Part shown: piece after piece, positions 1,817 to 28,473 of the stretch
Layout: the number at the start of each line of letters is the position of its first letter
How positions within the stretch are numbered: position 1 is the first letter of the stretch
IMG/VR virus record: IMGVR_UViG_3300033148_008145
Coordinates: 1 to 61,882 of that record
Length of the DNA: 61,882 nt
Origin: a virus
Lineage: Duplodnaviria > Caudoviricetes
Reading direction: 5' to 3' (one strand)
Translations under genes and position numbers: made by a program
The notes under the pieces: generated by a model
What the model saw: only the letters and a program-made list of their open reading frames with translations
What the model was told of the DNA's origin: nothing
Database searches by the model: none

Positions 1817-1817
1817 T

Positions 1818-3980: not shown

Positions 3981-3998
3981 TAAAGGAGAATATATATA

Positions 3999-5111: not shown

Positions 5112-5133
5112 TAGCCTTTATATATCTTTTTGC

Positions 5134-5170: not shown

Positions 5171-5211
5171 GGAAAAAATGTGTATCTCCCTTTAATATAA
5201 GGTGTAAGATT

Positions 5212-5592: not shown

Positions 5593-5634
5593 GATTTTTT
5601 CTGAAAAAACCCCATATAGTGTAATCAACTCTAT

Positions 5635-9000: not shown

Positions 9001-12000
9001 AAGCGGCGCTGGGATTAGCCGCATATCCGGGGGCATAACGATAGATCGAGGTACAGAACCTTCGGCGAACATTTTATATAACGACGCTAACGATAGATTC
9101 GAGTTGAACTTTCCTTTGGCGACAGAGGGGAATGTGGTAGCAGCCGCAGCTAACTTAATTACCACAGGTCAGACTCTCACCACAAGCATAAACACCGTAT
9201 CCACCAACCTTGTCTCGACGGGCAAAGTTGTTGACGATATTAGCGGGAATTTAATCACGACGGGTCAAACACTGCAAACGCAGATTACCGCCAACGATGC
9301 TGATATTTCAACCAATGTGGGTAACATTGCTACCAATGTTAGTGATATATCATCCCTTACAACCAATCTTGTTGCAACGGGTCAAACACTACAAACACAG
9401 ATCACATCGAATGATGGTGACATATCCACACTTACAAGTAATCTGGTGACCACGGGTCAGACCCTTACAACCAACGTTAACACCGTCTCATCCAATTTGG
9501 TTTCTACCGGTGCGATTGTTGATGACGTTAGTGGGAACCTGATTACAACTGGGCAGACATTACAAACCCAGATTACGTCCAATGATACGGACATTACGAA
9601 TTTAAGTAGTAACCTAGTTACTACTGGTCAGACGCTCACTACAAACATAGATACTGTTGCCACTAATCTTGTGACGACTGGCCAGACTTTAACTTCGGAG
9701 ATAAATACCGTCTCGGGATTGATTCCTCCTACTGTTGTGGATGGGGCGGGAGTTACGGGGTATACCGCGAGATGGTATGATGGTAACACATTAACGACGG
9801 GTGTTTTATATGATAATGGAACTAATGTCGGTATCGGTACCTCAAGCCCGCAACGTCTTCTTCACGTAAATGGGGATGCCATAATTAGCGGTAAACTTTA
9901 CGATCAAACCAATTCGACGGGAGATAAAGGTTACGTCCTCACAAGCGACGACAACGGTCCGCTCTGGAAAGCTTCGGGAGACTTTGACGGGTTAAGTGTA
10001 AACTTGATTACGACCGGTCAAACGTTGACTACGAACCTGATCGCAACTGGCGTGTTCGTGGATACGAACACGGCCGGTGTCGCCACCAATGTAGCGAACC
10101 TAATCGCAACGGGTGCGTTTGTCGATACGAACACGGCCGGTGTCGCCACCAATGTAGCGAACCTAATCGCAACGAACGCATCGAACCTAATCGCAACGGG
10201 TGCGTTTGTCGATACGAACACGTTGGGAATCGCTACCAACGTAACGGCTATCGCCCTTAACGCATCGAACCTAGTCTTAACGGGTGCGTTTGTCGATACG
10301 AACACGGCTGGTGTCGCCACCAATGTAGCGAACATCGCCACTAACGCATCGAACCTAGTCTCAACGGGTGCGTATTTGACTTCCGAAATAGCTATCGTTT
10401 CCGGTATCGCCGAAGCTCATACGGATTTGACCGCGACCGGTCACATCATCGACTTGTTAAGCGGGGACTTGATTACGACCGGTCAAACGCTGACGACGGA
10501 CATCAATGCGGTTGCGTCGAACCTAGTCTTAACGGGTGCGTTTGTCGATACGAACACGGCTGGTGTCGCCACCAACGTAACGAACCTAATTACGACCGGT
10601 CAATATTTAACCGATGAGATAATTACTGTCTCCGGATTGATTCCCGCGACTGTTGTCGATGGAGCGGGGGTTACAGGGTATACTGCGAGATGGTTTGATG
10701 GTAACACATTAACGACAGGAGCTTTATACGACAACGGAACTAGGATTGGTATAGGGAATGATGCGCCCGACTATACTCTTGATGTTGCTGGCACCGTGGG
10801 CATCGACAACTACATCTACCATAATGGGGATAACGATACTTACCTAAAATTCGACACCGATGAAGTTAATTTAGTTGCTGGTAATTGGTCTGCTTTAAAG
10901 CTTGATAAAGCAACCGGAAAAATTCAGTTGAATAATACAAATGCCGATCTTGATTTGCAAGTGATGGCAGATGATGGTGAAGTAATTTTACACACAGATG
11001 CGGGTACGAACAAAGTAGGTATTGTTGCTGGTGGTGATGTTCAAATTCTTTCGGTAGACCCGGGTCCCGGCACTTCCAATCCTACAGATGGCAGATTACT
11101 TTTTGATAAAGTATTTGATAATAGCGGCGAAGCCACTGCTAACAAGATTGTTCTTTACGATGATGGTGGAGTGGGGGCTCAATGGAAGGGCGGTATTGGT
11201 GTTAGTTCAAGCGATATAGATTTCTTTTCGGGAGATAATTTCAGATTTTGGACAAATCATGGGTCAACTACTGAAGGTGACAACAGGCTTACAATTTTGG
11301 CTGACGGCAAAGTTGGCATCGGAACCACTACGCCAGCCACAACCCTTCATCTTTATACTACTTCTGGTAATAATTATCTAAAAATAGAAAACCAATCAAC
11401 AAGCCAAGCGGCTTTATGGTGGAAAACGGGTACAACAGACGCTAGTTGGATAGCTTACATTCCTTCGTCGTCTTCGGATTTAAGGTTATACGCTGGGGCA
11501 GATAAGGTTACTTTTAAAACTGACGGCAAAGTTGGTATCGGGACTATTACGCCAGCTGGATTACTTCACTTAAGAGTAAGTAGCGGTGCTTTAAATACAT
11601 ATTATGATGGAGATGGAGATAAGATTTTATGGTTCCGTACCGCGTCTGGGACTGCTCAATCAGAGTGGAAAGTAGACGCGGCCAAAACTTGGATAACAAC
11701 AAGAGGGACACTGCCGCTAAAATTTGGTACAAACGATACCCTTGCTCTAACTATTGATGGCTCGTCTCAAGCAGCCACATTCAGCGGTACGTTAACGGGT
11801 ACAAGTGCTACGTTCACGGGCGTAATTACCGCTGACGCTGGTTTAGTCCTCAATGATAATGATAAGATTAAGCTAGGGACTAGCGGTGATCTGGAGATTT
11901 ACCATGATGGAAACAATTCATTCATAAAAGATGCCGGAACAGGTGGGTTATATATTTATACAAATACTCTTGCTGTAACAAATGCTGCTGGTAATGAAAA

Positions 12001-15000
12001 CATGATATACGCCACCGAAAACGGCGCTGTAACTCTTTATCATGATAACGCTGTAAGACTAGCCACTACTTCAACTGGCGTAGCTGTTACTGGTGGCGTT
12101 GTAGCTACCTCCACAATTCAAGTGAGCCGTTCCAGTGCCTCACCGTTGTTTCAAGTAACTGACGCTGACGCTGGTGGTGGAGCTAAAAGTCGTTGGTTTG
12201 GGTTAGTGGATGGGACAAGTCGGTTCGCCATTTATGGCACTAATGGTACAACTGAAGAATTTAAGTTGGATGATGGAGGCGCAGCCACATTCAGCGATAC
12301 GCTCAACATAGCCAGCGGCAATCTCCAAATAGGGGGGACCAATATAATCAACTCTGGTCTGGCTATGTACAACTTGGAATCATTCAAGTTGGCCGATACC
12401 AAGAAAGCGTATTTTGGGTCGAGTAATGATTTAGAAATTTATCATGATGGTTCTCACTCTTATATTTCAGATCAAGGTGCAGGGTATTTAAGAATAAAAG
12501 CATCCAGTTATTTGCAGTTGATGGCTAGTGATGGCGAAGTATATATAAACTGCGAGGCTAATGGGGCAGTATATTTATCATACGACAACTCTACTAAACT
12601 AGCTACAACTTCAACAGGCGTAACTGTTACTGGAGCTTTAAAGACTACAACAATTTTAGATACTAATAACAGCGCCGGAACTAATGGACAAGTTTTAACC
12701 ACTACCGGCTCCGCTCTGGATTGGAAGACTTTGGCTGAGATTTCTGGTGTCGATGGAACTGGTACTGCAAACTACCTTTCGAAGTGGACAGATACAGATA
12801 CGATAGGCAACTCGAGCATTTTTGATAATGGAACAAATGTCGGCATCGGGACGGCTTCACCTAACTACAAACTGGAACTTTCATTTGCGGCTGGAAATCA
12901 TACTACTGGCATGGCGATTACGAATACCCAAGCTGGTGGCTATGGTAATGCACTTAATTTCGTATCCAAAAGAAGTGACGATAGCTCGCTCAATATTGCG
13001 GCACGAATCCGAACTGAAGGTGCTTCTTCTTGGAATACTGACGCTTCAACAAGCACCAATTTGAAATTTGAGACTGTATCCGCAGATACTGTGGCTACAA
13101 GAATGACCCTTCTTCATAACGGCAATATTGGCATGGGAACTCCTTCGCCTTCTGAAAGGTTGGATATAGAGTGGACTGATGGAGCCAACTATTCATCAAG
13201 TAGCGTTACTGAAGGAGTAAACATAAAACTCTCCAATGTTCAGAGTAATACGAATGGAGTCGCAGGGTTAATTTTTGGTGCAAGGTCAACTACCACTAGT
13301 TATGCTAAAGTTGGAGCAGAGGTAACTGGTAATGGAAATATAGATTTATTCTTTCAGACGGAAGGTAGTGGTACTATTGGTGAAAGAATGCGTATTAAAG
13401 CTGACGGCAATGTTGGCATCGGGACTACTGCGCCATCCGTCAAGCTTCATGTTGCTGGAGCGGTGACGGTTGATGGTGGCGGTGCTGCGCAAGCAGCGAA
13501 TACTAACGCTGATGATCTAGTGATTAGAGGCGACGACAACCGGGGTATCTCGATAATAACAGGAACAAACAAAGACGGGCGAATAGTTTTTAGCGACACA
13601 GCAGATACGGTAGTAGGTGGTTTACGGTACGATCATGGTGTCCCCCATATGCAGTTGCTAACTGAAGGTTCAGTTGCCCTTACGCTTAATGGTTCTCAAA
13701 ACGCCACATTCAGCGGCGCGGTGGTGGCTACAGGAGCGCTGACGGCTAACGGACTGTTTTACGTAAACAATTTAGCACAGATAGCGCAGTCAAAGAGTAG
13801 CACAACTGATCCAACTAGCAACATAATGCTTCAGTTGAAGAACACCAATACCACAAACAATGTTTATAACACCCTGATGTTCAAGGATGCGCAGGGTAAT
13901 GATGGTGCGTGTCTTTCAGCAAGGCATACAGACCATACTGGCAACAAGGCGGGTATAGGGTTATGGACTAGGGACGGAAGCAACTTGATTGAAAGGATGA
14001 CCATTGCTCCGGGTGGAGCAGCCACGTTTAGTGGAACATTAGGAGTTACAGGTGCTATTACTGCATCTTCTATGACAAATACTCTAGGGAGTGCAGTAGC
14101 GTCTACCAATCTTCAAACTATATTAAATGGGGTAGCCAGTAAGGCCAATAGGATTAAATTTCAAGAGGGTGGTGTTGACAAATGGCTTCTTGGTCAAGGT
14201 GCAGCATCAGAAACAAGTGCGTTTGAACTATACAACGCAGTTGGCGTTATAGCTATTAGTGTCAATAGGACTTCAAGCCTTACAACATTAGGGGCGGGAC
14301 TAGCAGTTACAGGAACGGGTACGTTCAGCGGTGCGCTGACGGGCACTAGTGCTACGTTCAAATTAGATGCAGGGCTTACCCTTGAACGCACATCAGTTGA
14401 TTCAAGACTGCGGATGTTCAATACGGGCGGTGAATGGATTATTGCTTCGACCTACGGGTCTACTGGAGCGTATGACCCAATTAAATTTCAAACAAGTGAT
14501 GTCACTAGACTTACGATTGCTGCTAATGGAGCATCCACATTCAGCAGCACGGTTCGGGCCGAGGACAGGTTTGATCTTTATGACGGGACAAAGGTTTGGC
14601 AAATTAAAAATGTTAGCGGAACTTTTAGTTTGCGAAACGGAAATACGGGAGCGATTCCTATATCTATTACTAGCGCAGGAGTATCCACATTCAGCGGTGA
14701 TATTAAAATAATAAAAAGTGATGCGCAACTTTTCCTTGATGGAGGAAATGTTGAGGGATATTTCTATATGGCAAGTAGCGCAGCTTACCTAAGAACAACA
14801 ACCGCTCACCCATTATATATTGGAACAAACAATTCTATTGACCTTACGATTATCTCTGACGGCAATGTTGGCATCGGGACAACTGCGCCAAGTGCGGATC
14901 TTGAAGTGTCAACAGCATCTGGAGGAGAATTCTTAGTAACAAAATCTGGTAGCTCTGGTGTCACTTTACAGCAAGTCAATGGCGGTGATGCGACCTCTGG

Positions 15001-17896: not shown

Positions 17897-17930
17897 AAAA
17901 TGAAAATATACAATATCATAAAAAATGAAA
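17881..17930 (+). repeat. perfect 25-bp tandem duplication at the fibre gene junction
   Basis: ATATACAATATCATAAAAAATGAAA at 17881-17905 and 17906-17930. Confidence 0.95.
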
Positions 17931-20900
17931 TTCTCAGGATTTAACACTACGACAAAGATAGGCGTCGGAACTACTGCGCCAGCAAGAACTCTTGATGTGC
18001 AGGGACCAGCGGGTAACGATGATGTTATAGCTATTCGTCACCCATCTGGTGGTAGTTCGTGGCTTAAGTTGGGGTTTTGGAATGGAACCACAGAGAGGGC
18101 TTCAATAAGAACTCAAGATGACGCCAGCCATGTGAGTATTTTTTGTAGTACGACCGAACGGATGCGGATTATGTCCGACGGCAATGTTGGCATCGGGACT
18201 ACTGCGCCAGCAACTTTGTTTGATGCAAAATCATCAAGAACTCACAATTTTATTGGGCGATTTGTAAATACAAGCACGGTGGGGTGGGGAGCCTATATAG
18301 AGGGCGGCGGGGATAGCGCTGATTATTCGTTATTGATTCGTAACCAAGCCAGTAGTGATTTATTTGCTATAATGGGGGGTGGTGAAATTCGTGTGGCCAA
18401 CCAAACATTAGTTGATAGTGCTTACACAAACTACAATATGACATTCCCTGACTTGGGAGGCATAGCAATAGGGAGCGCTTACACTTATGCAAATATTTAT
18501 GCAACCAGTGGCAACCTTCATTTAAGAGCAAATGCATATGTTGCGAATACAGGATCAACCTCTAAAATATTTTTACAAACTGCCAATAGTGGAGGAGGTC
18601 AAGCGGCAGATGTAGTGGTTAATAACGGCAATCTCGGCCTCGGCTATGGTAACCCAGATTATACGCTCAAAATTGCAGGAGATTTTTATGTTCGCGACGG
18701 TTCCACTTTTGGCGGCAACGTCACCCTTGCAACTGGTGGAAGCAATACTGCCCCAAGATTAGCTTTTGGTGATGGGAATACTGGGTTTTTTGAACTCGGC
18801 GACAATGACCTGTATATTACCATTGGAGGCACGCGGAGTTTTATTATTGAGGAAAACGCATTTTATGGAGCCAACGCTACTGCGGCAATGATGCGAGGTG
18901 CTATAGCTTCGGCAGCAACCACAGCTTCGTTTTGTTTCAACTCGGATACGGATACAGGTATCGGGAGGGCAGCCGCCGATAAGCTTTCTCTTGTGGCTGG
19001 AGGGGTTGGTACAGTTACTGTTACATCCACTTCGGTTGGCATCGGGACAACTTCGCCAGCAGATGAACTGCATGTATACGGGTCGGGCAATATTGCGCTA
19101 TTCCAATCTAGTTCTGTCAATGTATGGCTTCAATTGAAAGGAAGCACAACATATAGTTGGCAAATAGGAGCAACAGGCAATGGGCTTCAGTTTTACAACG
19201 ATGAGACATCAGCTTATAGAGTAGTCTTTAAAAAAGACGGCAATGTCGGCATCGGGACAAATACGCCAAGTGAGAAGCTAGAGATATCTGGGGCAAGTGG
19301 TTTAGACGGAGCCACCCCTATTACTTTAAGGCTTCATTCAACAAACGACGGAAATTGGTCAAATCAAGTAGACGCAACAAGGATTGATTTTTCTACTGCT
19401 GATACTGGTGGTTATGTTGGGGCTGGAACAAAAGCCAGAATAAGTTCGTACCATAGAACACCAACAAATGTTTCTTCTGGTGGCCCAATGGGGCTTAAAT
19501 TCTATACTGCAGGTGATGCGACTGCAACCGCCCTAACTTCAAGGATGGTGATTGATCCAGACGGCAGTGTCGGCATCGGAACTACTACGCCAGCTAATAT
19601 TGTTGATGTACGAAGTAGCGGAACCCCTACTCTTGCCGTTAGGAATACTGGTACTAGCGCAAACGCTACGCTTCATCTCGGTGAAGTAAACCAGACGGCT
19701 TATGGAGTAGAATTGAGGTACGAGGGTAATTTAGGAAATCTCTTTTTGGAGAACCGTTATAATCACGCGACACGACCTCATATGTATTTCAGGATGAGAG
19801 TGGCTGGTACTCCGATTACTGCCATGACGATTGATCCAGCGGGTAATGTCGGCATCGGGACTACTGCGCCAGCTATGCCCCTTCATGTCTATTCGACTGC
19901 TAACGATGTTCTAAAGATTCAAGGTGCTGACCACGTTAGGGTGCATATTGACGGAACGGACTCGTCAGAAAAATCTTTAAACTTTTCGGAAGCGGGTAGT
20001 TTGATGTGGAAGTTGGGGATGGAGAATATCGCCCCATTCGAAGCTTTTGTTATTAAGAATAACGACAATGGTGCTCCCCAGTTTGTGATAGATTATAGCA
20101 GCGGCTATGTCGGTATCGGAAATACTACGCCTAATAATGGTCAAAACGTTACGGATAGGGTTCAACTTGCAATAGGGAATACGGCGCAGGTTGGTGGACG
20201 TGCAAGTGGTACTCCAAGTTGGTTTAATATTAGTCATGGAACTTATTTTAATGGAACTAATTGGAAATATTATTCAGCGGCAGATGAAGCTGCACTGATT
20301 GAAGGTTATAATGGTGGTCTGTACGCCCGGATGGCTGTAGCTGGTACCAATGCGGGAGACAATATTAGTTGGGTTACAGCATTAACCGTATTGAATACAG
20401 GCTACGTCCATATGGATGGAGCATCCCAAGTGAGATTGACCCTTGGAAGTCAAGGAACACCGGGAACTAATGACGCCAACTGGATAAGAGGAAATGCTAC
20501 TAATTTAAACTCTAACTCTGCGGGTGGAATACACTCTTGGGAGGTAAGCGGTGTAGAGAAAATGAAGCTGGACGCGTCGGGCAATCTGACGATTAACGGC
20601 AACATAAGCAATACTGCCGACGCGGGTTATTATTACCTTAACAATGCCGGGACAGGAAATAGCGGAGTTTATATTGCGGGATTTAGTACCGACATTATGA
20701 GATGCCATGTTCCCGCTGCTAAATATTTTCAATGGGAGGTTGGCGGCGCTGAGAGAATGAAACTTGATTCATCAGGTTTATTGACAATTACGGAATCGGG
20801 CAATGCTGGTGGTATAAATTTCCCTATTGCCAATTCTCGAATTTATTTTGGAGGTACTAGAGCAATAGAGGGCACTCCCGGTAATGCAAGTGGCAACTTA

Positions 20901-23900
20901 ACTTTTGGTGAAGGATACACGAGCGGAAAAGTTAGGCTTATAGCTGGGACAACAGAAGTAACTGGTGCGCTGACGGGTACTACGGCTACGTTTAGTGGCA
21001 ACTTAAGTGCCGGGGGGGCTAGCAGCACTTGGGTGGGTTACTCCGTAATTCAAGTAAAAGCTGCATCAATGGCATCCTCTGGCGTTGAATGTGAGTTGGG
21101 AGCTAACGTTTACTATAATTCTGGATGGAAATATTATAACGGCACGGTCGGAGCCACCCTGTACGAAGCTTACAACGGGGTTCACAAGTGGAAAACCGCA
21201 CCGAGCGGCACAGTAAACACGGCGGTGGCACTCACGGATAGAATGAACCTATCCTCCACAGGACTAACAATCACAGGAACGGGTACATTCAGCGGAAGTT
21301 TAAAAGCCGTAACAATTTTAGATACTAATAACAGCGCCGGAACTAATGGACAAGTTTTGACCACTACCGGCTCCGCTTTGGATTGGAAAACTTTAAGTGA
21401 GATTTCTGGGGTAGATGGCAGCGGTACTGCCAATTACATTCCGAAATGGACTGATGGTGATACTATTGGGAATTCTCAAATATTTGATAATGGAACCAAT
21501 GTCGGCATCAACGATGCAACTCCCACTTACAAACTAGATGTTAATGGAACATTTAGGGCAACTGGAGCAGGGACGTTTGGCGGTGCGATCACGGGTTATT
21601 CGCTTGCAGTCACGGCTGATAATAGCGGCTGGAATCCGGGGATAGCCTTAATAAACACCAACGCAGACTCCTCCCCAGCTTATATGAAGCTGGAAAAGAT
21701 TAGTGCCAGCCCAGCAGACAATGATTTCATCGGCGGTATCACATTCAGGGGTAGAAATGATGCTGCTGAAATTCACACCTATATGGAGATGTGGGGTGTC
21801 GCTACAGATGTTTCAAATGGAAACGAGTCAAGCAAGCTAAACATACACACTTTTAAACATGGTGTGGAATATCCCACCAGTCTTATCCTTGTTGGCAACG
21901 ATGTCGGCATGGGAGTTACCCCAACTGCCGTTAACACTTCGCATAGAAGTCTACAGATCGGCGGCAACGCCAACATCCAAAGTTACGGAACCAAAGGTGC
22001 GAGTGGTGAGGTGGATTACTGCCACAATGTTTATCTCAACCAAGATGGTAACTACAAGTTAATAAGTGCAGATGAAGCTACTATGTATCGTCAGAGCTCG
22101 GGCAAGCATATATTTTATAGTTGGGCTAGTGCTGCCGCTGGTTCAAATGTAAGCGTCAACGCTGCCGCAACTAAGCTCATCATTTTGGCTGACGGCAATG
22201 TCGGCATCGGGAGTGCTACGCCGGGTAAAACGCTGGATGTTGCTGGAACCTTCAGGGTTTCGAATGAGGTAACCCTCAGCGACCCCAACACGGCTGTTGA
22301 TAAAATAGGTGACGCTACAACCACAGGGTATCGGGTAAGACATTCAAATTTAAGTCAGGGAATATATATTGGTTACAACACTATCATGGGGGCGGGTTCA
22401 AGTGCAAATCAAGATATAACAATAAACGCAAAGGGAACGGGCGATTTATTATTAAATTCTACTGACGGCGGCAAAGTTGGCATCGGGACCGATACCTGTT
22501 CTTCAATCCTCCACGTTGACGCGGAAATGTCTTTAGGTCAAGACGGTAACAACCGGTCCATGCTTGGTTACTCAAATTCTACGAATCGTTTATATATTGG
22601 GACGAGGCAAAGTAGTACTAATTATTTCGACACTGTTTCGGTTACAAGCGGCAAAGTCGGCCTTGGGGGGAGAACTGCTCCGTCAACGACTTTGGTAATA
22701 CAAGGTATTTTTGATGGTTCTGCAACTCCAAGTGTTTCCGCCCCTAGCAACAACACAGCCAATAAGGGAATAGAAATTATAAAAGAACAATCGTCTGGCT
22801 GGGGGATTGGCGAGACATACGGAATAGATTTTGCCGCCACTAGCTCTGTTAACTCCACAAACCAATATAAGGTAGCTGCCATATATGGCGCAGTAGAGTC
22901 AGTACCATATTATGTTGCTGGCAAGTTGGGGTTTTATACGACTACAGGTGGGAATGGTGCATTATTATTAGAAAGAATGACGATAAAGGCTAGCGGCAGT
23001 GTCGGCATCGGTACTACTGCGCCAGTTCAAAAATTAGATGTGGCAGGAAACATTAATATAACTGGTGCCAATACTAATACTGGTTATGATAGGTATTTCA
23101 AAATGTACGGGAATAGCGATCCGGCGACAAATACCAACAGGTGGGCTGGTATTGGACTTTATAATAATGGAGGCAATAACGTCAACGAATTAGCATTTTT
23201 TACGGGAGCCGGTGATGGCGCACGAACAGAAAAGGTTCGTATTAATAATCAAGGCAATGTCGGCATCGGGACTACTACGCCAAGTTCTATTTTACATACA
23301 CGAATAGCAAACTCAGATTACGCAAACTCCGTAACTGGTGCTTCATTGATTGCTGAATCCACGGGTAGCCAAGCAAAAATTGTCATGAAAGTTGGCTCCA
23401 AGCATGCAGTAATAAGAACTGACAGCGGCGGGGCGATAGCTATTACGCCCCATTCTAGTGATATATATCTACAAAATTCAACTACAATGGTTGTTAAGGC
23501 TGACGGCAAAGTCGGCATCGGGACTGCTTCGCCATCACAAGTATTTGAGGTTTACGATGGAACATCTCACATGATGTATAACGGCAACATCAATATGTAC
23601 AAGGATGATTGCGGGTTATATGTGCGAGATTTATCGGGGACAGTAGGAATTCAGCTATTAGAAGGGACAAGCAATAGTTTTATAAGAGAGGGTAACTTCG
23701 GCATCGGGGATACTGCGCCGGGCGGTCTTTTATCTATAGGTACAAATGGTTCTTCCTATTTCAGTTCTAGCGCTCCAAATACGTTAAACTTTTTTTACAA
23801 TATAAACAGCGACACGGGCGGGTGGATTAATTATAGAGGGTATCAGGACGGAACCACTCAAACGAGAGATTTGATAATCGGTGACGGGAAGGGTGCGAAA

Positions 23901-25259
23901 ATAGCAACCTTTGACGGATCTACCAAAAGACTCGGCATCGGGATTGATGCTCCGGCTTATAAATTAGAAGTTTCAGATTCTGTAACGGGCGATTGGTTGT
24001 GTAGAATCAACAACACAGCAACCACCAGCACTCCCTCTGGTCTTATAGTTAGAACCGGTTACAATTCTGCAACTGCCACAGGTGGTTATTTATTAGGTTT
24101 ATTGGCAGGCCCTGATTATAGACTCGTAGTTCAGAATGATGGCAATGTCGGCATAGGGACTATTACGCCAGCACAAAAGCTCCACGTGATGGGTCAAATA
24201 AGTGCTGACAATGCAACTGGGGTATCAATGGCATGGTATAATACTGGTTCGATTCGTGGTCATCTTGGGATGACAGGCAACGAAGGTGACTTATCAATTT
24301 ATAGATCAAGTGCTGCAAAGCACGTTTATTTAAGTTCTTATTACGATTGTTATATAAACCCAGCAATCGGCAATGTCGGCATCGGTGATACTACTCCCAC
24401 TTACAAATTGGATGTTAATGGAACATTCAGAGCAACTGGCGCGGCGAATTTGGATAGCTCATTAACGGTTAGCGGCAACACAACGCTTGGTAACGATGAC
24501 ATGACCGACAGTTGGCAGTATTACGGCAGAAACACAAATACGCAGCTTACAACAAAGTATTTTTACATAGCGGCAAGCGGTACACAGGGAAAATCGGCAG
24601 AGGTGTGTAGGTTGTTTTTTAATTTGGTTCATTGGGGGACTTATGGGGCTGTTACAGTAGAGTTGTACGACCTCTATTACGGAGGCGATGGCTACTTGAA
24701 ATATGGTTGCAAGGCGGGCAACGGCAACGCTTGCGGAATTGAGCTAATTGAAGCGAGGGGAAACACAAGCGGGATGAAGGCAGACTTTGGTGCTGCCGTT
24801 GATACCGGGGGGGTGTATTCTGGGTACGCCAACTATTATGTCCCGGTTGTTGTTTATGCCAATGACTACAGACAACTCAAGGTTGTTGTTAGCACTACAA
24901 GATCCATTACAGCTTGGACAAACACCTCGTCCTACGGTGCATTGGCCTTTGCTCCATCAATATCTTATTCCAATATAAGTGATTTTAACCATACCGCGGT
25001 TCCAGAGCTAAACCCAACGCTATCTGGAGGTAACGCCACAACTCCAAACGCCACTTCTTCCCTGTACTCCACCCGTATGCAGATTCGAGAAGCCTTTCGA
25101 GATGATGGCGCGCAGATTTTAAGCAGCGCCGGTGCTTTGCTAAACATAACTACGCTGACAACCAGCAGCAGCATAGTTCAATCAGGAACAGGAGCTAACA
25201 TAGACCTTGGTACTAGGCTCAAACTCAACATACAACTGGAGGCTCAGACAAAACGATAA
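17925..25259 (+). CDS. giant modular fibre protein 2 (2444 aa; probably continues by +1 frameshift)
   Basis: About 20 GNVGIGT-delimited modules; the last ~17 codons look out of register and overlap the next ORF. Confidence 0.8.
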   Translation: MKFSGFNTTTKIGVGTTAPARTLDVQGPAGNDDVIAIRHPSGGSSWLKLGFWNGTTERASIRTQDDASHVSIFCSTTERMRIMSDGNVGIGTTAPATLFDAKSSRTHNFIGRFVNTSTVGWGAYIEGGGDSADYSLLIRNQASSDLFAIMGGGEIRVANQTLVDSAYTNYNMTFPDLGGIAIGSAYTYANIYATSGNLHLRANAYVANTGSTSKIFLQTANSGGGQAADVVVNNGNLGLGYGNPDYTLKIAGDFYVRDGSTFGGNVTLATGGSNTAPRLAFGDGNTGFFELGDNDLYITIGGTRSFIIEENAFYGANATAAMMRGAIASAATTASFCFNSDTDTGIGRAAADKLSLVAGGVGTVTVTSTSVGIGTTSPADELHVYGSGNIALFQSSSVNVWLQLKGSTTYSWQIGATGNGLQFYNDETSAYRVVFKKDGNVGIGTNTPSEKLEISGASGLDGATPITLRLHSTNDGNWSNQVDATRIDFSTADTGGYVGAGTKARISSYHRTPTNVSSGGPMGLKFYTAGDATATALTSRMVIDPDGSVGIGTTTPANIVDVRSSGTPTLAVRNTGTSANATLHLGEVNQTAYGVELRYEGNLGNLFLENRYNHATRPHMYFRMRVAGTPITAMTIDPAGNVGIGTTAPAMPLHVYSTANDVLKIQGADHVRVHIDGTDSSEKSLNFSEAGSLMWKLGMENIAPFEAFVIKNNDNGAPQFVIDYSSGYVGIGNTTPNNGQNVTDRVQLAIGNTAQVGGRASGTPSWFNISHGTYFNGTNWKYYSAADEAALIEGYNGGLYARMAVAGTNAGDNISWVTALTVLNTGYVHMDGASQVRLTLGSQGTPGTNDANWIRGNATNLNSNSAGGIHSWEVSGVEKMKLDASGNLTINGNISNTADAGYYYLNNAGTGNSGVYIAGFSTDIMRCHVPAAKYFQWEVGGAERMKLDSSGLLTITESGNAGGINFPIANSRIYFGGTRAIEGTPGNASGNLTFGEGYTSGKVRLIAGTTEVTGALTGTTATFSGNLSAGGASSTWVGYSVIQVKAASMASSGVECELGANVYYNSGWKYYNGTVGATLYEAYNGVHKWKTAPSGTVNTAVALTDRMNLSSTGLTITGTGTFSGSLKAVTILDTNNSAGTNGQVLTTTGSALDWKTLSEISGVDGSGTANYIPKWTDGDTIGNSQIFDNGTNVGINDATPTYKLDVNGTFRATGAGTFGGAITGYSLAVTADNSGWNPGIALINTNADSSPAYMKLEKISASPADNDFIGGITFRGRNDAAEIHTYMEMWGVATDVSNGNESSKLNIHTFKHGVEYPTSLILVGNDVGMGVTPTAVNTSHRSLQIGGNANIQSYGTKGASGEVDYCHNVYLNQDGNYKLISADEATMYRQSSGKHIFYSWASAAAGSNVSVNAAATKLIILADGNVGIGSATPGKTLDVAGTFRVSNEVTLSDPNTAVDKIGDATTTGYRVRHSNLSQGIYIGYNTIMGAGSSANQDITINAKGTGDLLLNSTDGGKVGIGTDTCSSILHVDAEMSLGQDGNNRSMLGYSNSTNRLYIGTRQSSTNYFDTVSVTSGKVGLGGRTAPSTTLVIQGIFDGSATPSVSAPSNNTANKGIEIIKEQSSGWGIGETYGIDFAATSSVNSTNQYKVAAIYGAVESVPYYVAGKLGFYTTTGGNGALLLERMTIKASGSVGIGTTAPVQKLDVAGNINITGANTNTGYDRYFKMYGNSDPATNTNRWAGIGLYNNGGNNVNELAFFTGAGDGARTEKVRINNQGNVGIGTTTPSSILHTRIANSDYANSVTGASLIAESTGSQAKIVMKVGSKHAVIRTDSGGAIAITPHSSDIYLQNSTTMVVKADGKVGIGTASPSQVFEVYDGTSHMMYNGNINMYKDDCGLYVRDLSGTVGIQLLEGTSNSFIREGNFGIGDTAPGGLLSIGTNGSSYFSSSAPNTLNFFYNINSDTGGWINYRGYQDGTTQTRDLIIGDGKGAKIATFDGSTKRLGIGIDAPAYKLEVSDSVTGDWLCRINNTATTSTPSGLIVRTGYNSATATGGYLLGLLAGPDYRLVVQNDGNVGIGTITPAQKLHVMGQISADNATGVSMAWYNTGSIRGHLGMTGNEGDLSIYRSSAAKHVYLSSYYDCYINPAIGNVGIGDTTPTYKLDVNGTFRATGAANLDSSLTVSGNTTLGNDDMTDSWQYYGRNTNTQLTTKYFYIAASGTQGKSAEVCRLFFNLVHWGTYGAVTVELYDLYYGGDGYLKYGCKAGNGNACGIELIEARGNTSGMKADFGAAVDTGGVYSGYANYYVPVVVYANDYRQLKVVVSTTRSITAWTNTSSYGALAFAPSISYSNISDFNHTAVPELNPTLSGGNATTPNATSSLYSTRMQIREAFRDDGAQILSSAGALLNITTLTTSSSIVQSGTGANIDLGTRLKLNIQLEAQTKR

Positions 25260-27399
25260 TAATGGTGGCGACTTTACCATCAAGCGTTCCACCGCTGGGG
25301 GTGGCACAACTTTTGAATCTGTCCCTACGCTACAATTTCTTTCGGACCATAAGGCTATATTCAGAGGTGATATTGTAAGCGGTACCGGAAGCATTGCTTG
25401 GGCAACATTAGGAGGAATTAGAATAGCAAACGGCGCAAGTGCTTACAGTTTCTTTTCTGCCAGCGACCAGACTAAAACATGGTTTGCTGGAATAGACCAC
25501 CATATGGCGGGTGGTAAAATGGGTATGGGTAGCAGTCATGATTTGACGATTGTAACAGGAAATGTTGAAGCTATAAAAGTTGACACATCTCAAAACACCA
25601 TATTCAGCGGAGATATTGCTGCGGGGACAAACAATGTCTACGACATTGGGGCAAGTAATAAGTTCTTCAGACATTGTTATCTTTATTATCTTCACGCCAG
25701 CACCCTTACAGCCACGGGGAACTGCACATTGGGCGACTCAACCTCCGCTGACTCACACACCATAAACGGCAGATTGCTAGTTAAGCCCGCCTCAATAGGC
25801 TATATTGATTTTTTAAGTAATGGTAGTTACGCCTGCCGAATAAAAAACCCGAATGGGAATCTTCATATTGGCGGCGGCAAGATATTTTTGGAGTATGGGG
25901 CGGGGGATGTTGTTGCTGCTACAATTGACGGTGCGACGGGCAGAGTCGGCATTGGGAGCGATACACCGATTCGGCAATTAGATGTATTAGGGGCAGTCGC
26001 TGGTCAATATTCTGCAGCTCTAATAAACACAAGTGCAACAGGGCATGGTCTATATATAAAAGCCGCGGCGAATAGTGCGTCTTATTTTTCGCTTGCGGTG
26101 GATGATAAAGATGGTACTACAAATTTTGTGATTCGTGGTGACGGCAAAGTCGGCATCGGGACTAATCCAACAGCGAGACTTTACGTAGTGGAAACTGCAA
26201 ATAATGCGTGGGCACTCCAAGTCAAAGGCACAGGTACAAGCGCTAATTATGGATTGGAAGTTAATTGTTCGGCGGGATATGCTTTATCTTCTCAACCATT
26301 TAAAGTTCAGACACCTAGCGGCGGCCCATTTTTTATAGATGGAAATGGCAATGTCGGTATCGGGGATGGTTCCCCTGATTACAAACTAGAGGTTGCAGGA
26401 ACATTGAGAATAGATGGAACTAGCTCATTGGCTGGTGCGGTGGAGGTTCACAGTGCGTTCTCGGCTTACCAATCGGGGTATTTTAAGCACGCTACAACTG
26501 GCTCAAAAAAGGGTGCTATATCAACTGGAGGTGCGCTAACTACTTGGCCGTTCCCAAGTGAAACAGCCTATGGTTCGCTGCAAAGCTGCGTAGGTAATGC
26601 CTCACTTACAGATTGCGCGTTTCCCTCAATTCACGCCTACGGTGGTGCGGGTGTTATAGGCGTAGGCGGCACGGATACTGGAGGAAGGCAAAATATTGGG
26701 GTGTTAGGCTACCAGCGGTTTACTCAAGATATGTCCACCAACACCTCTAACTACGGGTTTGGGGGCTACTTCATGGCTAAAGGTCTTGGCGCTTGTACTG
26801 ATTTCAAGGGGCATTATGTTGGGGTATATGGTAGGGGCGATACAGGATCAGATGCTGTAGAAACTCCTTACGGGACTGTTACGGGAGGATGGTTTCAGGC
26901 TGAAGGTAAAAGCGGTCAGACGACTTACGGGATTAAGGTGGCTGCTTCGAGCGGATCAACCAATTATGCAATAAGAAGCACTGCTGGGGAGGTTGCCATC
27001 ACTGGCGGCAGTGTCGGCATCGGGACTACTTCTCCGGGTTACTTGTTGGAAGTTAACGGCTCGTTTGCCGCGACTAGCAAGTCTTTTGTTATCGATCACC
27101 CTCTCAAGCCTGACCACAAGCTTGAACACGGAGCTTTAGAGGGACCTGAGTTTGGCGTTTATCACCGAGGAAGGGCTCAATCCGATACTATAACTCTCCC
27201 CGATTACTGGAGTGGCTTAGTAAGGGATGGCACAATCACGGTGCAATTGACACCAAACGGATCATTCCAGCATCTATATGTAGTGAGTACTTCATTGACT
27301 GAAATCAAAATCGGCGCTGCTGATGGCGAAACAATCGACTGTTACTATGTAATTTACGGAGAAAGAGCCGATGTAGATAGACTTATCGTGGAAAAATAG
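25207..27399 (+). CDS. fibre protein C-terminal part (730 aa)
   Basis: GKVGIGT modules and terminal KSFVIDHP...LEHGALEGPEFGVYHRG...ITLPDYW...VQLTP...YGERADV domain typical of phage fibre ends; TTG start in the +1 frame of the upstream ORF. Confidence 0.75.
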   Translation: MVLGSNSTYNWRLRQNDNNGGDFTIKRSTAGGGTTFESVPTLQFLSDHKAIFRGDIVSGTGSIAWATLGGIRIANGASAYSFFSASDQTKTWFAGIDHHMAGGKMGMGSSHDLTIVTGNVEAIKVDTSQNTIFSGDIAAGTNNVYDIGASNKFFRHCYLYYLHASTLTATGNCTLGDSTSADSHTINGRLLVKPASIGYIDFLSNGSYACRIKNPNGNLHIGGGKIFLEYGAGDVVAATIDGATGRVGIGSDTPIRQLDVLGAVAGQYSAALINTSATGHGLYIKAAANSASYFSLAVDDKDGTTNFVIRGDGKVGIGTNPTARLYVVETANNAWALQVKGTGTSANYGLEVNCSAGYALSSQPFKVQTPSGGPFFIDGNGNVGIGDGSPDYKLEVAGTLRIDGTSSLAGAVEVHSAFSAYQSGYFKHATTGSKKGAISTGGALTTWPFPSETAYGSLQSCVGNASLTDCAFPSIHAYGGAGVIGVGGTDTGGRQNIGVLGYQRFTQDMSTNTSNYGFGGYFMAKGLGACTDFKGHYVGVYGRGDTGSDAVETPYGTVTGGWFQAEGKSGQTTYGIKVAASSGSTNYAIRSTAGEVAITGGSVGIGTTSPGYLLEVNGSFAATSKSFVIDHPLKPDHKLEHGALEGPEFGVYHRGRAQSDTITLPDYWSGLVRDGTITVQLTPNGSFQHLYVVSTSLTEIKIGAADGETIDCYYVIYGERADVDRLIVEK

Positions 27400-27415
27400 T
27401 GTAATTTCTATAAAT

Positions 27416-28036
27416 ATGAAAATTGTTGATATTGCAGACGAAATTTTCAGGGAACTCGGAGAACCTTCAACGATTTCTATTCCCGCAATCTCTTTTTGGA
27501 TCAGGAGTAATGTAGGCGAATTGAATAATAGAATAAATACCACCTTTAAAATCGTGGATTATGGAGCTGACGCCTATGAGTTTTCGGGAAGTTTTGTTTC
27601 TCCCGAGTACGAACCTCAGGCTTTTAATGAGGCAACCGGCGCTCTGGGTCTTTCGATTGACTCGAATAAGGGAAGTACGACTACGCCAGTTATAGTTTCT
27701 ATTCAAGCTGAAGAAGCTTCTGTTTTGAAAAAAATGTATATAGTTCATTATTACGACCAGCAAATTAGAGCGACCGTAGGCGCTGCTTCCAGCGATCCTG
27801 TCGTAGAGGTCGCATCTGATGGCTCTCGAGTAAGGAAAATTAATAAAAACGAATTAAGCAAAACTTACCTTTCTTTAAAGCGGGAAGAATATAATGAATT
27901 GACTGATTTAATTAACGCTTACAAATTAAGGAAGGCTTCTCCGGTGCAAGTTGCTGGAGACGATACTCAAGTGGGACAGTATTCGATCAATTATGATGGC
28001 TATCCTTACAATAGAATTTCACCGAATTATATCTAA
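27416..28036 (+). CDS. putative head-tail adaptor
   Basis: Synteny (first of four coupled genes before the tail tube); GTGTAA at 27399. Confidence 0.5.
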   Translation: MKIVDIADEIFRELGEPSTISIPAISFWIRSNVGELNNRINTTFKIVDYGADAYEFSGSFVSPEYEPQAFNEATGALGLSIDSNKGSTTTPVIVSIQAEEASVLKKMYIVHYYDQQIRATVGAASSDPVVEVASDGSRVRKINKNELSKTYLSLKREEYNELTDLINAYKLRKASPVQVAGDDTQVGQYSINYDGYPYNRISPNYI

Positions 28037-28473
28037 TGGCATCTTTAGTATCAGCAGCAGAAGCGACCATATTGGAGGCGGCGCTTGGAGATCATTTTGA
28101 CACCTTTAAAGCAACCATTACGGTCAACAAGGAGCCTAAAAAAACGGTTACGCTATCTGCTTCTCAAAATATTTATGCTGGATACAGCGCTCCGAAAGAG
28201 CAGGTGACCTATACTCCAGTGAGCGCAACTTTCAGCGCGATTGTTAATTACAAGGAAAACCAACCGCTCGACTACCAAGACGAGTTAAAAGCCAATATTG
28301 AGAAGGGTGATGTGAGAATTAAAGTAGAGTTAGAGTGCAGAGACTACATAGAGAAGGGGAAAACACTTTCTATTGATATAGGCGGAAATCCTTTCAATGT
28401 AGTTAGCTCCGAGGGAGTGAGGTATTTCTTGGGAAAAACTTATTACGTATTTTATTTGGAGGCAACCACCTAA
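28036..28473 (+). CDS. putative head closure/stopper protein
   Basis: 145-aa beta-rich ORF, TAATG-coupled, synteny. Confidence 0.5.
   Translation: MASLVSAAEATILEAALGDHFDTFKATITVNKEPKKTVTLSASQNIYAGYSAPKEQVTYTPVSATFSAIVNYKENQPLDYQDELKANIEKGDVRIKVELECRDYIEKGKTLSIDIGGNPFNVVSSEGVRYFLGKTYYVFYLEATT

What the first reader, a model, noticed from the sequence alone, without database searches (positions are those of the whole stretch)
9820..27040. Fibre genes are arrays of unique modules separated by a DNA-conserved ~30-bp repeat: candidate module-shuffling system
Seen: roughly 35-40 copies of G(N/K/S)VGIGTTxP separate mostly unrelated 70-110 aa modules across three ORFs. The repeat is conserved at synonymous positions. 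About 20 copies carry exactly GGC ATC GG, and the consensus GAC GGC AAT GTC GGC ATC GGG ACT ACT GCG CCA is GC-rich, whereas the modules between mostly use GGT/GGA and ATT/ATA codons. The consensus can form an imperfect hairpin (GCA(A/G)T-GTC, 8-nt loop, GAC-T-ACTGC, one bulged base). Known: GNVGIGT is a common peptide motif of phage fibres, but protein selection alone does not fix third positions. Inference: the repeat is a DNA-level crossover site through which in-frame adhesin modules are gained, lost and reordered, like a coding cassette array. No recombinase is visible in this window.
Basis: partly seen in the sequence, partly recalled or inferred. Interest (0 to 1): 0.85.

Follow-up and report, generated by a model that had tools for sequence, protein, structure and literature searches.

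The report
Phage fibre modules joined by DNA-conserved connectors
Three giant tail-fibre genes of an uncultured marine phage are strings of about 40 related beta-helix modules, each opening with the same short motif that is kept alike even at silent DNA positions, and related phages carry single modules swapped at exactly these motifs.

Summary
There are 40 copies of xG(N/K)VGIGTTxP in three ORFs. Their 33 nt (GAC GGC AAT GTC GGC ATC GGG ACT ACT NCG CCA) use GGC, GTC and ATC, the rarest Gly, Val and Ile codons of this phage. Other conserved residues 11-13 codons downstream show no codon bias.

- The modules are diverged paralogues, not unrelated. They are homologous to the solved trimeric beta-helix domains of Bdellovibrio MAT fibres, where this motif is the 'capping loop'.
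- Relatives with saturated backbone dS share single modules at 77-94% nt identity (dS 0.15-0.79 in five measured), in another order and gene. Homology ends at the motif or at a second DNA-conserved junction, ATFSG.
- An unbiased scan shows each phage lineage has its own DNA version of the motif, uniform within a genome.
- This fits homology-driven exchange and gene conversion, not a sequence-specific recombinase.
- The hairpin is not supported, and no recombinase was found in this half-genome.

The principle is known from T-even gp37/gp38. The scale, the silent-site homogenisation and the lineage-specific versions appear undescribed.

The parts
6008..17896 (+). Fibre ORF A (3962 aa). The first ~1270 aa are a different repeat type; 17 motif-led modules follow from 9821.
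17925..25259 (+). Fibre ORF B (2444 aa), 19 motif-led modules
25207..27399 (+). Fibre ORF C (up to 730 aa; the true start is uncertain). It has 4 motif copies and a C-terminal ~110-aa domain shared with cyanophage and Flavobacterium-phage proteins.
9818..9850 (+). class-1 connector copy (DNGTNVGIGTSSP variant)
10736..10768 (+). class-1 connector copy (divergent)
11303..11335 (+). class-1 connector copy
11522..11554 (+). class-1 connector copy
12830..12862 (+). class-1 connector copy; homology with L035/L115/G001 segments ends here
13118..13150 (+). class-1 connector copy; right end of the module shared with G001
13403..13435 (+). class-1 connector copy
14858..14890 (+). class-1 connector copy
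15077..15109 (+). class-1 connector copy (divergent)
15362..15394 (+). class-1 connector copy; left end of homology with L118
15824..15856 (+). class-1 connector copy
16070..16102 (+). class-1 connector copy
16322..16354 (+). class-1 connector copy
16547..16579 (+). class-1 connector copy
16847..16879 (+). class-1 connector copy; homology with G001 starts just after it
17066..17098 (+). degenerate class-1 copy (DGKIQIGNNVP) missed by the pattern; homology with G001 ends here, where G001 has a canonical copy
17228..17260 (+). class-1 connector copy (divergent codons)
17450..17482 (+). class-1 connector copy
17949..17981 (+). class-1 connector copy (first of ORF B)
18177..18209 (+). class-1 connector copy; left end of module B02 shared with L115
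18624..18656 (+). class-1 connector copy; right end of module B02 shared with L115
19026..19058 (+). class-1 connector copy; left end of module B04 shared with L035
19236..19268 (+). class-1 connector copy; the shared B04 segment ends 18 nt after it
19560..19592 (+). class-1 connector copy
19839..19871 (+). class-1 connector copy
20100..20132 (+). class-1 connector copy
21492..21524 (+). class-1 connector copy at an internal mosaic joint. The left side is paralogous to 12649-12847 (85%). The right side is paralogous to 24371-24442 (86%).
21894..21926 (+). class-1 connector copy (divergent)
22191..22223 (+). class-1 connector copy
22467..22499 (+). class-1 connector copy
22647..22679 (+). class-1 connector copy
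22992..23024 (+). class-1 connector copy
23250..23282 (+). class-1 connector copy
23502..23534 (+). class-1 connector copy
23922..23954 (+). class-1 connector copy
24138..24170 (+). class-1 connector copy
24366..24398 (+). class-1 connector copy
25936..25968 (+). class-1 connector copy
26140..26172 (+). class-1 connector copy
26344..26376 (+). class-1 connector copy
27004..27036 (+). class-1 connector copy (last, before the C-terminal domain)
11771..11788 (+). class-2 junction (AATFSG; GCC ACA TTC AGC GG)
12281..12298 (+). class-2 junction; homology with L115 ends here and homology with G001 starts here
13700..13717 (+). class-2 junction
14018..14035 (+). class-2 junction; the left end of the 94% module lies ~25 nt downstream (14060)
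14315..14332 (+). class-2 junction; the right end of the 94% module lies ~26 nt downstream (14358), inside the conserved GALTGTSATF tail
14531..14548 (+). class-2 junction
14681..14698 (+). class-2 junction
20982..20999 (+). class-2 junction
21279..21296 (+). class-2 junction; left end of the segment shared with L115/G001
14060..14358 (+). module shared with relative G001 at 94% nt (dS 0.15). It lies in ORF A here and in the third fibre ORF of G001.
12884..13149 (+). module A05 shared with G001 at 83% nt (dS 0.37)
12308..12456 (+). segment shared with G001 at 90% nt
16883..17066 (+). module shared with G001 at 84% nt (dS 0.79)
18178..18622 (+). module B02 shared with L115 at 84% nt (dS 0.57), bounded by connectors on both sides
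19035..19286 (+). module B04 shared with L035 at 88% nt (dS 0.27). It is also 76-80% aa identical to single modules in proteins P0119 and P0045.
15365..15615 (+). segment shared with L118 at 77% nt, starting at a connector
21289..21475 (+). segment shared with L115 at 91% nt; its paralogue 12637-12815 matches at 86%
25717..25877 (+). segment shared with L256 at 82% nt
27134..27398 (+). C-terminal domain shared with L260 (85%) and L115 (84%). From here on, both relatives are colinear with the window.

Best explanation
The three ORFs are giant tail fibres of an uncultured siphovirus-like marine phage. Their distal 17 kb is a chain of about 40 diverged paralogous beta-helix modules of the type solved in Bdellovibrio MAT fibres. 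Each module opens with the 'capping-loop' peptide DG(N/K)VGIGTTAPxxKLxV.

Protein structure fixes the amino acids and so two thirds of the bases. The remaining silent positions of these 33 nt are kept alike by DNA-level processes. These are crossovers and short-tract gene conversion between motif copies, within a genome and between co-infecting relatives.

The result is a short, in-frame stretch of near-identity at every domain boundary. Homologous recombination, most plausibly by a mismatch-tolerant phage annealase or host RecA, can then replace, move or delete whole modules there without breaking the fold. A second junction, (A)ATFSGxL, works the same way.

Shown here: the silent-site homogeneity and its sharp limits; its generality and lineage-specific versions; module sharing far younger than the backbones; and homology ends at the connectors.

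Inferred: that recombination causes the homogeneity, and which enzyme acts.
For: (1) The silent-site bias is extreme and limited to codons -3..+7. Conserved Leu+11 and Val+13 have none.

(2) Residue variants keep the DNA. At -1 the residues are N AAT, K AAA, S AGT. At +6 they are GCG, ACG, TCG.

(3) The three Gly positions use different codons consistently. P(same codon) is 0.60 at the same position against 0.29 across positions in the window. In an unbiased set it is 0.52 against 0.37 over 39 loci, 30 of 39 in that direction, P 8e-6.

(4) I ran an unbiased degenerate scan. In 35 loci with 4 or more copies, codon homozygosity exceeds expectation at G+1 (0.61 vs 0.36, 29 of 35, P 1e-5), G+3, T+4, V0 and I+2, but not at L+11, V+13 or P+7. 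The consensus differs by lineage: GTT GGT ATA GGA, GTA GGT ATT GGT, GTC GGT ATC GGG and others.

(5) Homogenisation raises exact matches of 20 nt or more between copy pairs from 0.24 expected to 20 of 780.

(6) In relative G001, flanking genes are colinear at 54-58% aa identity in the two genes aligned (41-74% across tblastx HSPs). Third-position identity is 0.35-0.39 and dS is saturated. Yet single modules match at 83-94% nt with dS 0.15-0.79, in a different order. L115 shows the same pattern: backbone about 70% nt, modules 84-91%.

(7) Flanks fall to random identity right at the connectors. 13 of 34 HSP ends lie within 20 nt of a class-1 copy (null 5.7, P 0.002). 19 of 34 lie within 20 nt of either class (null 7.5, P 1e-4).

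(8) There is an internal mosaic joint at 21501.

(9) Among the best 120 of 1331 related giant proteins, single modules match at 70-87% aa identity inside otherwise 25-35% identical proteins.

(10) In contigs of four public metagenome runs, single modules at 95-99% identity lie in records that do not run on colinearly past the connector.
Against: - No recombinant was observed being formed. All evidence is comparative.
- The median exact match between copy pairs is only 8 nt, short for most recombinases.
- Several homology ends are not at a recognised junction (15615, 12456, 25877, 27134).
- Some of the 17 HSPs in the permutation overlap the same region, so the P values are optimistic.
- Selection alone would also enrich surviving breakpoints at domain borders, whatever the joining mechanism.
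- The window is a metagenome contig, and the Logan contigs (k = 31, recalled) could be chimeric at the few repeats of 31 nt or more.
- The excess of GC at silent sites of the motif in the unbiased set is weak (0.33 vs 0.24, P 0.08).
- No recombinase is known for this phage: CheckV rates the record 48% complete.
Confidence: 0.68

Rival explanations
1. Translation-level selection. The codons of the motif are chosen for decoding speed or accuracy, for example a rare-codon pause at each domain border that lets the previous module fold. DNA identity is then a by-product.
For: In this phage the motif uses the rarest codon for Gly (GGC), Val (GTC), Ile (ATC), Ala (GCG) and Pro (CCA), and it lies at a domain border. 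In the unbiased set the dominant motif codon is usually a common one: rank 1-2 in 30 of 35 loci at G+1. That could reflect accuracy selection.
Against: The two observations point in opposite directions: rare codons here, common ones elsewhere. Three Gly positions in one motif use different codons consistently. No single best or worst tRNA explains that. Conserved Leu+11 and Val+13 show no bias. When the residue changes, the DNA stays one step away. The window carries no tRNA genes. The host tRNA pool is unknown.
Confidence: 0.1
2. Joining is illegitimate or micro-homology-independent, and selection for intact domains alone places surviving breakpoints at the borders. The silent-site identity has another cause, such as mutation bias or descent.
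For: Domain borders would be favoured by selection in any case. Some breakpoints lie 20-45 nt from the motif core or at no recognised motif.
Against: This does not explain why 33 nt, and only these, are homogenised at silent sites in 40 copies. It does not explain the position-specific codons, or why the same holds with other versions in other lineages. A second junction motif is also biased: AGC 7 of 9 Ser, P 6e-4.
Confidence: 0.1
3. A dedicated site-specific system. A recombinase recognises the 30-bp site, perhaps as a hairpin, and shuffles modules.
For: The site is short, repeated and sharply bounded. Half of the genome is unseen.
Against: - The DNA version differs between lineages.
- A second, unrelated junction is used.
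- All 27 close matches are direct repeats on one strand.
- Breakpoints vary in position.
- The hairpin is no more stable than shuffles: z -2.2 to +1.0, and in the most favourable copy 6 of 200 shuffles fold at least as well. Structures differ between copies.
- There is no covariation: in the A/T 2x2 table P is 0.59, and control pairs show the same excess.
- None of the 30 other window ORFs scanned matched a recombinase family. 20 went to PHROGs and 20 to Pfam.
Confidence: 0.04
4. Recent tandem duplication. The copies are young duplicates whose bodies diverged fast under diversifying selection, while the motif simply has not had time to change.
For: The modules are paralogues. dN is high in shared modules.
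Against: Silent sites just outside the motif, at conserved Leu+11 and Val+13, are already randomised. Only 2 module-sized DNA repeats exist within the module array (12649-12847 ~ 21311-21509 and 21497-21568 ~ 24371-24442). The same DNA version is shared by phages whose backbones are saturated at silent sites.
Confidence: 0.05

Closest known systems
T-even phage distal tail-fibre locus (gp37 'His boxes', gp38 glycine-rich motifs): recombination between short conserved motifs swaps adhesin segments. Tetart et al. 1996/1998, as cited in PMC3157838; I read passages of the latter. The term 'His boxes' is recalled.
   Same: Short conserved motifs separate variable segments. [quoted passage not shown] The effect is a new combination of host-recognition parts.
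   Different: The protein family is unrelated (no Pfam hit). There are about 40 whole-domain modules over 17 kb and three genes, rather than 4 loops in one small adhesin. Two connector classes are used. Here silent-site homogenisation and lineage-specific DNA versions are measured. I found no statement of that in the passages read.
Bdellovibrio bacteriovorus MAT (mosaic adhesive trimer) fibres and S74-type phage fibres (PMC10769870; passages read; PDB 8ond, 8oml, 8ojn, 8ol4, 8on4)
   Same: The module family is the same by sequence. A profile of 102 modules hits Bd2133 at E 1.7e-24 (4 stretches), Bd1334 at 6e-12 and Bd3182 at 1.3e-10. The motif is the same too: in Bd3182, R656-H669 is one of the paper's 'capping loops' and reads RVGVGTTAPTSALH in the aligned chain. 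The fibres are chimeric, with diversified ends.
   Different: Those are bacterial surface fibres with a few beta-helix domains and a tip. The paper treats the motif as a structural feature. In the passages found, 'shuffl' has 0 hits and 'recombin' has 2, which I did not read. ORFs A-C have no S74 domain, although many relatives do (PF13884).
Mosaics formed by relaxed homologous recombination in temperate phages (Rad52-like recombinases; PMC3945230; passages read)
   Same: The exchanged pieces are small: median mosaic length there is 404-494 bp, and here 150-450 bp. Recombination across short, diverged homology is proposed as the mechanism.
   Different: In that work the homology flanks are ordinary diverged genes. 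Here they are a standard 33-nt coding connector repeated about 40 times. No recombinase has been identified here.
Programmed variation systems (shufflons, diversity-generating retroelements, silent-cassette gene conversion). Their defining features are recalled, not taken from a call.
   Same: They vary the host-binding parts of a surface or fibre protein through repeated short sequences.
   Different: There are no inverted sites. No recombinase or reverse transcriptase family was matched in the window. No silent cassettes are seen: all modules lie in long open frames.

Membership tests
MAT / S74-type trimeric beta-helix fibre superfamily | Sequence homology of the repeating module to solved beta-helix fibre domains | tested here: met
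   A profile of 102 modules searched against PDB hits 8ond E 1.7e-24, 8oml 6e-12, 8ojn 1.3e-10, 8ol4 1.8e-8 and 8on4 6.5e-6. Foldseek on the monomer model puts the same entries on top, but weakly (E 0.036, TM 0.3). The model has pLDDT 72.
MAT / S74-type trimeric beta-helix fibre superfamily | Capping-loop motif (VG.G/N..P...L) at the edges of each beta-helix domain | tested here: met
   The motif is aligned residue for residue with the capping loops of Bd3182 and Bd2133. The motif is described in PMC10769870.
MAT / S74-type trimeric beta-helix fibre superfamily | C-terminal S74 intramolecular chaperone/protease domain (S74 subgroup only) | tested here: not met
   ORFs A, B and C have no Pfam family at E <= 0.01. 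Many relatives carry PF13884. The window's fibres would be of the non-S74 kind.
MAT / S74-type trimeric beta-helix fibre superfamily | Trimeric, intertwined assembly | not tested
   Only a monomer model of one module was made.
Motif-mediated fibre mosaicism (T-even gp37/gp38 type) | Short conserved motifs delimit variable segments | tested here: met
Motif-mediated fibre mosaicism (T-even gp37/gp38 type) | Homology between relatives breaks at the motifs; segments are reassorted | tested here: met
Motif-mediated fibre mosaicism (T-even gp37/gp38 type) | Crossovers inside the motifs shown by genetic crosses | not testable with these tools
   The phage is uncultured; only comparative data exist.
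Motif-mediated fibre mosaicism (T-even gp37/gp38 type) | Protein homology to gp37/gp38 | tested here: not met
   No Pfam family was matched. The resemblance is one of mechanism, not descent.
Site-specific shuffling systems (shufflon / cassette inversion) | Inverted recombination sites | tested here: not met
   All 27 matches with up to 2 mismatches are on the + strand. GGCATCGG occurs 23 times on + and 0 times on -.
Site-specific shuffling systems (shufflon / cassette inversion) | Adjacent recombinase gene | tested here: inconclusive
   None of the 30 other ORFs scanned matched one: 20 in PHROGs and 20 in Pfam, with 10 scanned in both. The record is about 48% complete.
Site-specific shuffling systems (shufflon / cassette inversion) | One conserved DNA site across systems, or a conserved structure | tested here: not met
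   The DNA versions are lineage-specific. The hairpin is not supported.

The most novel reading that the evidence does not exclude
The silent positions of the capping-loop codons are themselves under second-order selection as a standard recombination connector. Each gene pool of environmental phages would keep its own 'dialect' of the 33-nt joint, here a GC-rich one built from the phage's rarest codons. Only fibres that share the dialect could trade beta-helix modules. The dialect would then define who can exchange host-range parts with whom. The same may hold for MAT-type fibres of bacteria.
Probability: 0.3. Interest if true: 0.8.

Novelty: new variant of a known kind. Interest (0 to 1): 0.62.

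Why it matters
Tail-fibre mosaicism is the main route by which phages change host range. How in-frame, fold-preserving exchanges arise between sequences with no alignable DNA is still argued: homologous, relaxed-homologous or illegitimate recombination.

This locus and its many relatives offer a large natural data set. At least 1331 giant proteins match. More than 120 viral contigs carry this DNA version of the motif. In this data set the joints are marked by a measurable silent-site signature.

The signature makes the question testable. Silent-site homogeneity of connectors could be used as a read-out of recombination. The lineage-specific versions could be compared with exchange networks.

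The connectors also suggest natural splice points for engineering fibres from beta-helix modules in laboratory phage-host pairs.

Tried and rejected
- Hairpin. DNA and RNA folds of 5 copies (plus one reverse strand as DNA) gave z-scores from -2.2 to +1.0 and different structures. Third-base covariation (Val third base against third-Gly third base) showed Watson-Crick pairs in 46 of 117 loci against 30.8 expected. Non-pairing control columns gave 36-41 against 29-32, and the A/T-only table gave P 0.59. Rejected.
- A universal DNA motif. The biased scan suggested it. The codon-blind scan showed AT-rich lineages use GGT, GTA/GTT and ATA/ATT. Rejected.
- GC-biased conversion as a general signature: weak.
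- Close relatives. Megablast against phage records found none. The search for related loci with ORF B found none. L115 and L260 are not held as whole records, so only their stored stretches were compared.
- Pfam on ORFs A-C gave nothing. phmmer of ORF C against PDB gave only a chance-level oxidoreductase hit.
- Host. A genome-contig scan with the lineage's 24-mer found 6 MAG contigs of unrelated taxa. Only one 63-nt match to the window resulted. No host inference is possible.
- Sequencing runs. 20 marine, vent and sediment runs hold 17-40% of the sampled words of 17900-27400. Many 'joints' between motif copies in the laid contigs have sides of only 20-32 nt. I do not count them as recombinants. 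Uncovered parts are not interpreted.
- Literature. No paper in the library contains NVGIGT, VGIGTT, GNVGIG or KVGIGT. A search on tail fiber + concerted evolution / gene conversion / synonymous sites returned 12 listed papers, none on fibres. Supplements, such as Supplementary Fig. 18 of PMC10769870 with the capping-loop alignment, could not be seen.

Full report
WHAT IS THERE

The window is a whole IMG/VR virus record of 61,882 bases that CheckV rates about 48% complete. Positions 6008-27399 hold three consecutive + strand ORFs of 3962, 2444 and up to 730 aa.

The surrounding genes mark a siphovirus-like structural region:
- a 2669-aa tape-measure protein (PF10145);
- lambda-type tail-tip proteins (phrog_18, phrog_30, phrog_32 and PF05939).

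The ORFs themselves hit no Pfam family. PHROGs (run on ORF C only) gives two families of unknown function on its C-terminal ~110 aa and a weak tail-fibre match over its residues 294-405 (phrog_9942, E 1.4e-07).

A loose peptide pattern finds 43 sites. After dropping 3 weak ones there are 40 copies of xG(N/K)VGIGTTxP: 17 in A, 19 in B and 4 in C.

Their DNA consensus is GAC GGC AAT GTC GGC ATC GGG ACT ACT NCG CCA. Codon choice in the copies, with the rest of the same ORFs in brackets:
- GGC 28 of 30 Gly at -2 (0.20)
- GTC 27 of 34 Val (0.13)
- GGC 30 of 40 (0.20)
- ATC 29 of 34 Ile (0.14)
- GGG 25 of 39 (0.17)

Binomial P values run from 5e-11 to 6e-20. In the 22 other ORFs of the window, GGC, GTC, ATC, GCG and CCA are each the rarest codon for their residue.

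The bias stops sharply. Leu at +11 (30 of 40 copies) and Val at +13 (26 of 40) are conserved residues without any codon preference.

Where the residue varies, the DNA stays one step away. At -1: AAT/AAA/AGT. At +6: GCG/ACG/TCG, with third base G in 22 of 40. This is the mark of a shared DNA template, not of independent selection on the peptide.

The core 14-mer with up to 2 mismatches occurs 27 times, only on the + strand and only in these ORFs. Shuffles expect 0.26.

WHAT THE MODULES ARE

The modules are not unrelated. Many pairs align over their whole length at 25-45% identity. 102 modules from the window and five relatives align, with the first sequence 20-39% identical to the rest.

A profile of that alignment finds the solved C-terminal fibre domains of Bdellovibrio bacteriovorus:
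- Bd2133 (8ond): E 1.7e-24, four stretches
- Bd1334 (8oml): 6e-12
- Bd3182 (8ojn): 1.3e-10
- Bd2439 (8ol4): 1.8e-8

The paper on these 'mosaic adhesive trimer' fibres describes intertwined trimeric beta-helix domains whose edges carry 'capping loops' with a consensus motif. One of them, R656-H669 of Bd3182 (PMC10769870, passages), reads RVGVGTTAPTSALH in the aligned chain. That is the same motif.

An AlphaFold model of one module is all-beta. It has pLDDT 72, high at both motif ends and low in the middle. Foldseek puts the same Bdellovibrio entries on top, but only weakly.

So the peptide conservation has a structural reason: the motif opens each beta-helix domain.

The family is large. For one 299-aa stretch, 1331 proteins of 1344-4277 aa match at E <= 1e-5. 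Many carry the S74 chaperone domain and are named 'tail fiber domain-containing protein'.

IS THE DNA CONSERVATION GENERAL?

In these, other copies often use the same codons. That sample is biased.

A codon-blind scan (GGN AAN GTN GGN ATH GGN ACN AC) gave 118 loci with 299 strict copies in 117 of them. It showed no universal version: AT-rich contigs use GGT, GTA/GTT and ATA/ATT.

Within a genome, however, the copies agree. Codon homozygosity in 35 loci with at least 4 copies, observed against expected:
- G+1: 0.61 vs 0.36 (29 of 35 loci, P 1e-5)
- G+3: 0.53 vs 0.36
- T+4: 0.56 vs 0.35
- V0: 0.54 vs 0.37
- I+2: 0.57 vs 0.43
- L+11: 0.27 vs 0.30; V+13 and P+7 also show no excess

Each lineage has its own version. 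The three Gly positions of the motif keep different codons. P(same codon) is 0.52 at the same position against 0.37 across positions, with 30 of 39 loci in that direction (P 8e-6). In the window it is 0.60 against 0.29.

A tRNA-level preference would treat all Gly positions alike. A recombinase site would not differ by lineage. Homology-driven homogenisation fits both facts.

In the window, homogenisation raises the number of copy pairs with an exact match of 20 nt or more. Re-drawing codons from background expects 0.24 such pairs. The observed number is 20 of 780, with a longest match of 33 nt. The median is still only 8 nt.

DO RELATIVES SHOW SHUFFLING AT THE REPEAT?

The best comparator is G001, a 77.7-kb contig.
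- Its genes upstream of the fibres are colinear with window 1815-6000. tblastx HSPs range from 41 to 74% aa identity. The two genes aligned in full are 54% and 58% identical.
- Only 1099 of 6007 nt align, at 68%.
- Third-position identity is 0.35-0.39, and dS is saturated.
- Single fibre modules nevertheless match at 83-94% nt: 14060-14358 at 94% (dS 0.15); 12308-12456 at 90%; 12884-13149 at 83% (dS 0.37); 16883-17066 at 84% (dS 0.79).
- Read along G001, the six longest matches fall at window positions 21298, 12884, 12308, 15463, 16883 and 14060, so the order differs. They also sit in different ORFs.

L115 is colinear downstream of ORF C at about 70% nt. It shares module B02 (18178-18622, 84%, dS 0.57) and a 187-nt segment at 91%. 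L035 shares B04 at 88%, and L118 shares a 251-nt stretch at 77%.

L260 is the closest backbone relative, at 80% over 27134-28340. In the 6.2 kb of fibre DNA held for it, it shares no module with the window.

Flank-by-flank inspection shows identity collapsing to random exactly at the connector. B02 is bounded by copies at both ends. B04 and the L118 segment start at the first base of a copy. The 16883 module starts right after one, and it ends where G001 has a canonical copy and the window a degenerate one.

The same inspection revealed a second junction, (A)ATFSG(A/T)L. It is itself biased at silent sites: AGC 7 of 9 Ser (P 6e-4) and TTC 8 of 13 Phe. It bounds the 94% module and several others.

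In a permutation test, 13 of 34 HSP ends lie within 20 nt of a class-1 copy (null mean 5.7, P 0.002). 19 of 34 lie within 20 nt of either class (null 7.5, P 1e-4). Some HSPs overlap, so these values are optimistic.

Inside the window, the copy at 21501 is a mosaic joint. The DNA to its left is 85% identical to 12649-12847. The DNA to its right is 86% identical to 24371-24442. The further neighbours are unrelated.

At protein level, single modules match at 70-87% identity inside giant proteins that are otherwise 25-35% identical. Examples are P0014 on B10; P0119 on A08 and B04, at other positions; and P0101 on B13-B14.

Contigs of four metagenome runs from four studies carry single modules (A06, A14, B11 and the 20997-21295 segment) at 95-99% identity. 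These sit in records that do not continue colinearly past the connector. The contigs are short de Bruijn assemblies, so I treat this as supporting evidence only.

WHAT IS NOT SUPPORTED

The proposed hairpin is no more stable than shuffled sequence, and it folds differently in different copies. The candidate compensatory pair (Val third base against third-Gly third base) shows no excess over control column pairs and no association among A/T versions.

None of the 30 other ORFs scanned matched a recombinase or reverse-transcriptase family. No tRNA gene was found. All copies are direct repeats. Nothing points to a dedicated, programmed cassette system.

MECHANISM

Shown:
- a 33-nt in-frame connector at each domain border, homogenised at silent sites;
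- the same phenomenon, with other versions, across lineages;
- modules exchanged much more recently than the backbones diverged;
- homology ends at the connectors.

Inferred: crossovers and short conversion tracts between connectors both move modules and keep the connectors alike. They probably act through a recombination pathway tolerant of short, imperfect homology. Phage Rad52-like annealases have been shown to make mosaics of about 400-500 bp in temperate coliphages (PMC3945230, passages).

Selection for intact domains then filters the products. Whether connector identity is merely a by-product or is itself selected cannot be decided here.

COMPARISON AND NOVELTY

The principle is established for T-even gp37/gp38 (PMC3157838, passages). 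The protein module and its motif are structurally known (PMC10769870).

I did not find the following in print: the silent-site homogenisation of the capping-loop codons, its lineage-specific versions, the second junction class, or the scale of about 40 modules in three genes. Supplements were closed and subscription papers, including Tetart 1998 itself, were not seen.

I rate it a new variant of a known kind.

Noticed in passing
window 17881-17930: A perfect 25-bp tandem duplication (ATATACAATATCATAAAAAATGAAA x2) spans the stop of ORF A and the start of ORF B. One contig of run X1 lacks one copy (25 letters left out at 17881).
   Followed up: partly
window 6008-9800 and 10032-10373: The N-terminal ~1270 aa of ORF A are a different, highly repetitive fibre type (units like SGNLITTGQTLQTQITSNDxDI). 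Tandem DNA repeats of period 63 and 84 (81-92% matches) lie at 10032-10373.
   Followed up: no
window 33462-52814: The tape-measure gene (33462-41471, +) runs towards the lambda-type tail-tip genes (M/L/K/I-like, 52814 down to 49464, then a 2359-aa ORF at 42383-49462, all on the - strand). The two are convergent rather than colinear, which is an unusual arrangement or an assembly inversion.
   Followed up: no
window 27079-27396: The C-terminal ~110 aa of ORF C are 41-50% identical to hypothetical or tail-fibre-like proteins of Synechococcus, Prochlorococcus and Flavobacterium phages (46 records). They match phrog_17490 and phrog_28536, both of unknown function. This is a non-S74 fibre tip shared across very different phages.
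   Followed up: partly
G001 (L248) 40512-42592, minus strand: Two ORFs begin with a hydrophobic GFTLVELLVVIGIIALL-type N-terminus. From memory this resembles prepilin-type leader/methylation domains. It could be a host-derived gene or the flank of a prophage in the relative.
   Followed up: no
L261-L266 (genome contigs): The lineage's exact 24-nt connector occurs once each in 6 MAG contigs labelled as unrelated taxa (Methanosarcinales, Woesearchaeota, Saccharibacteria, Acidiferrales, Marinamargulisbacteria and an unclassified bacterium). These are probably binned viral contigs. No module is shared with the window.
   Followed up: partly
window 25207-25939: ORF C overlaps the end of ORF B by 53 nt and is open from a TTG. 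Its first 240 aa carry no connector. The real start, and whether B and C are separate proteins, is not settled.
   Followed up: no
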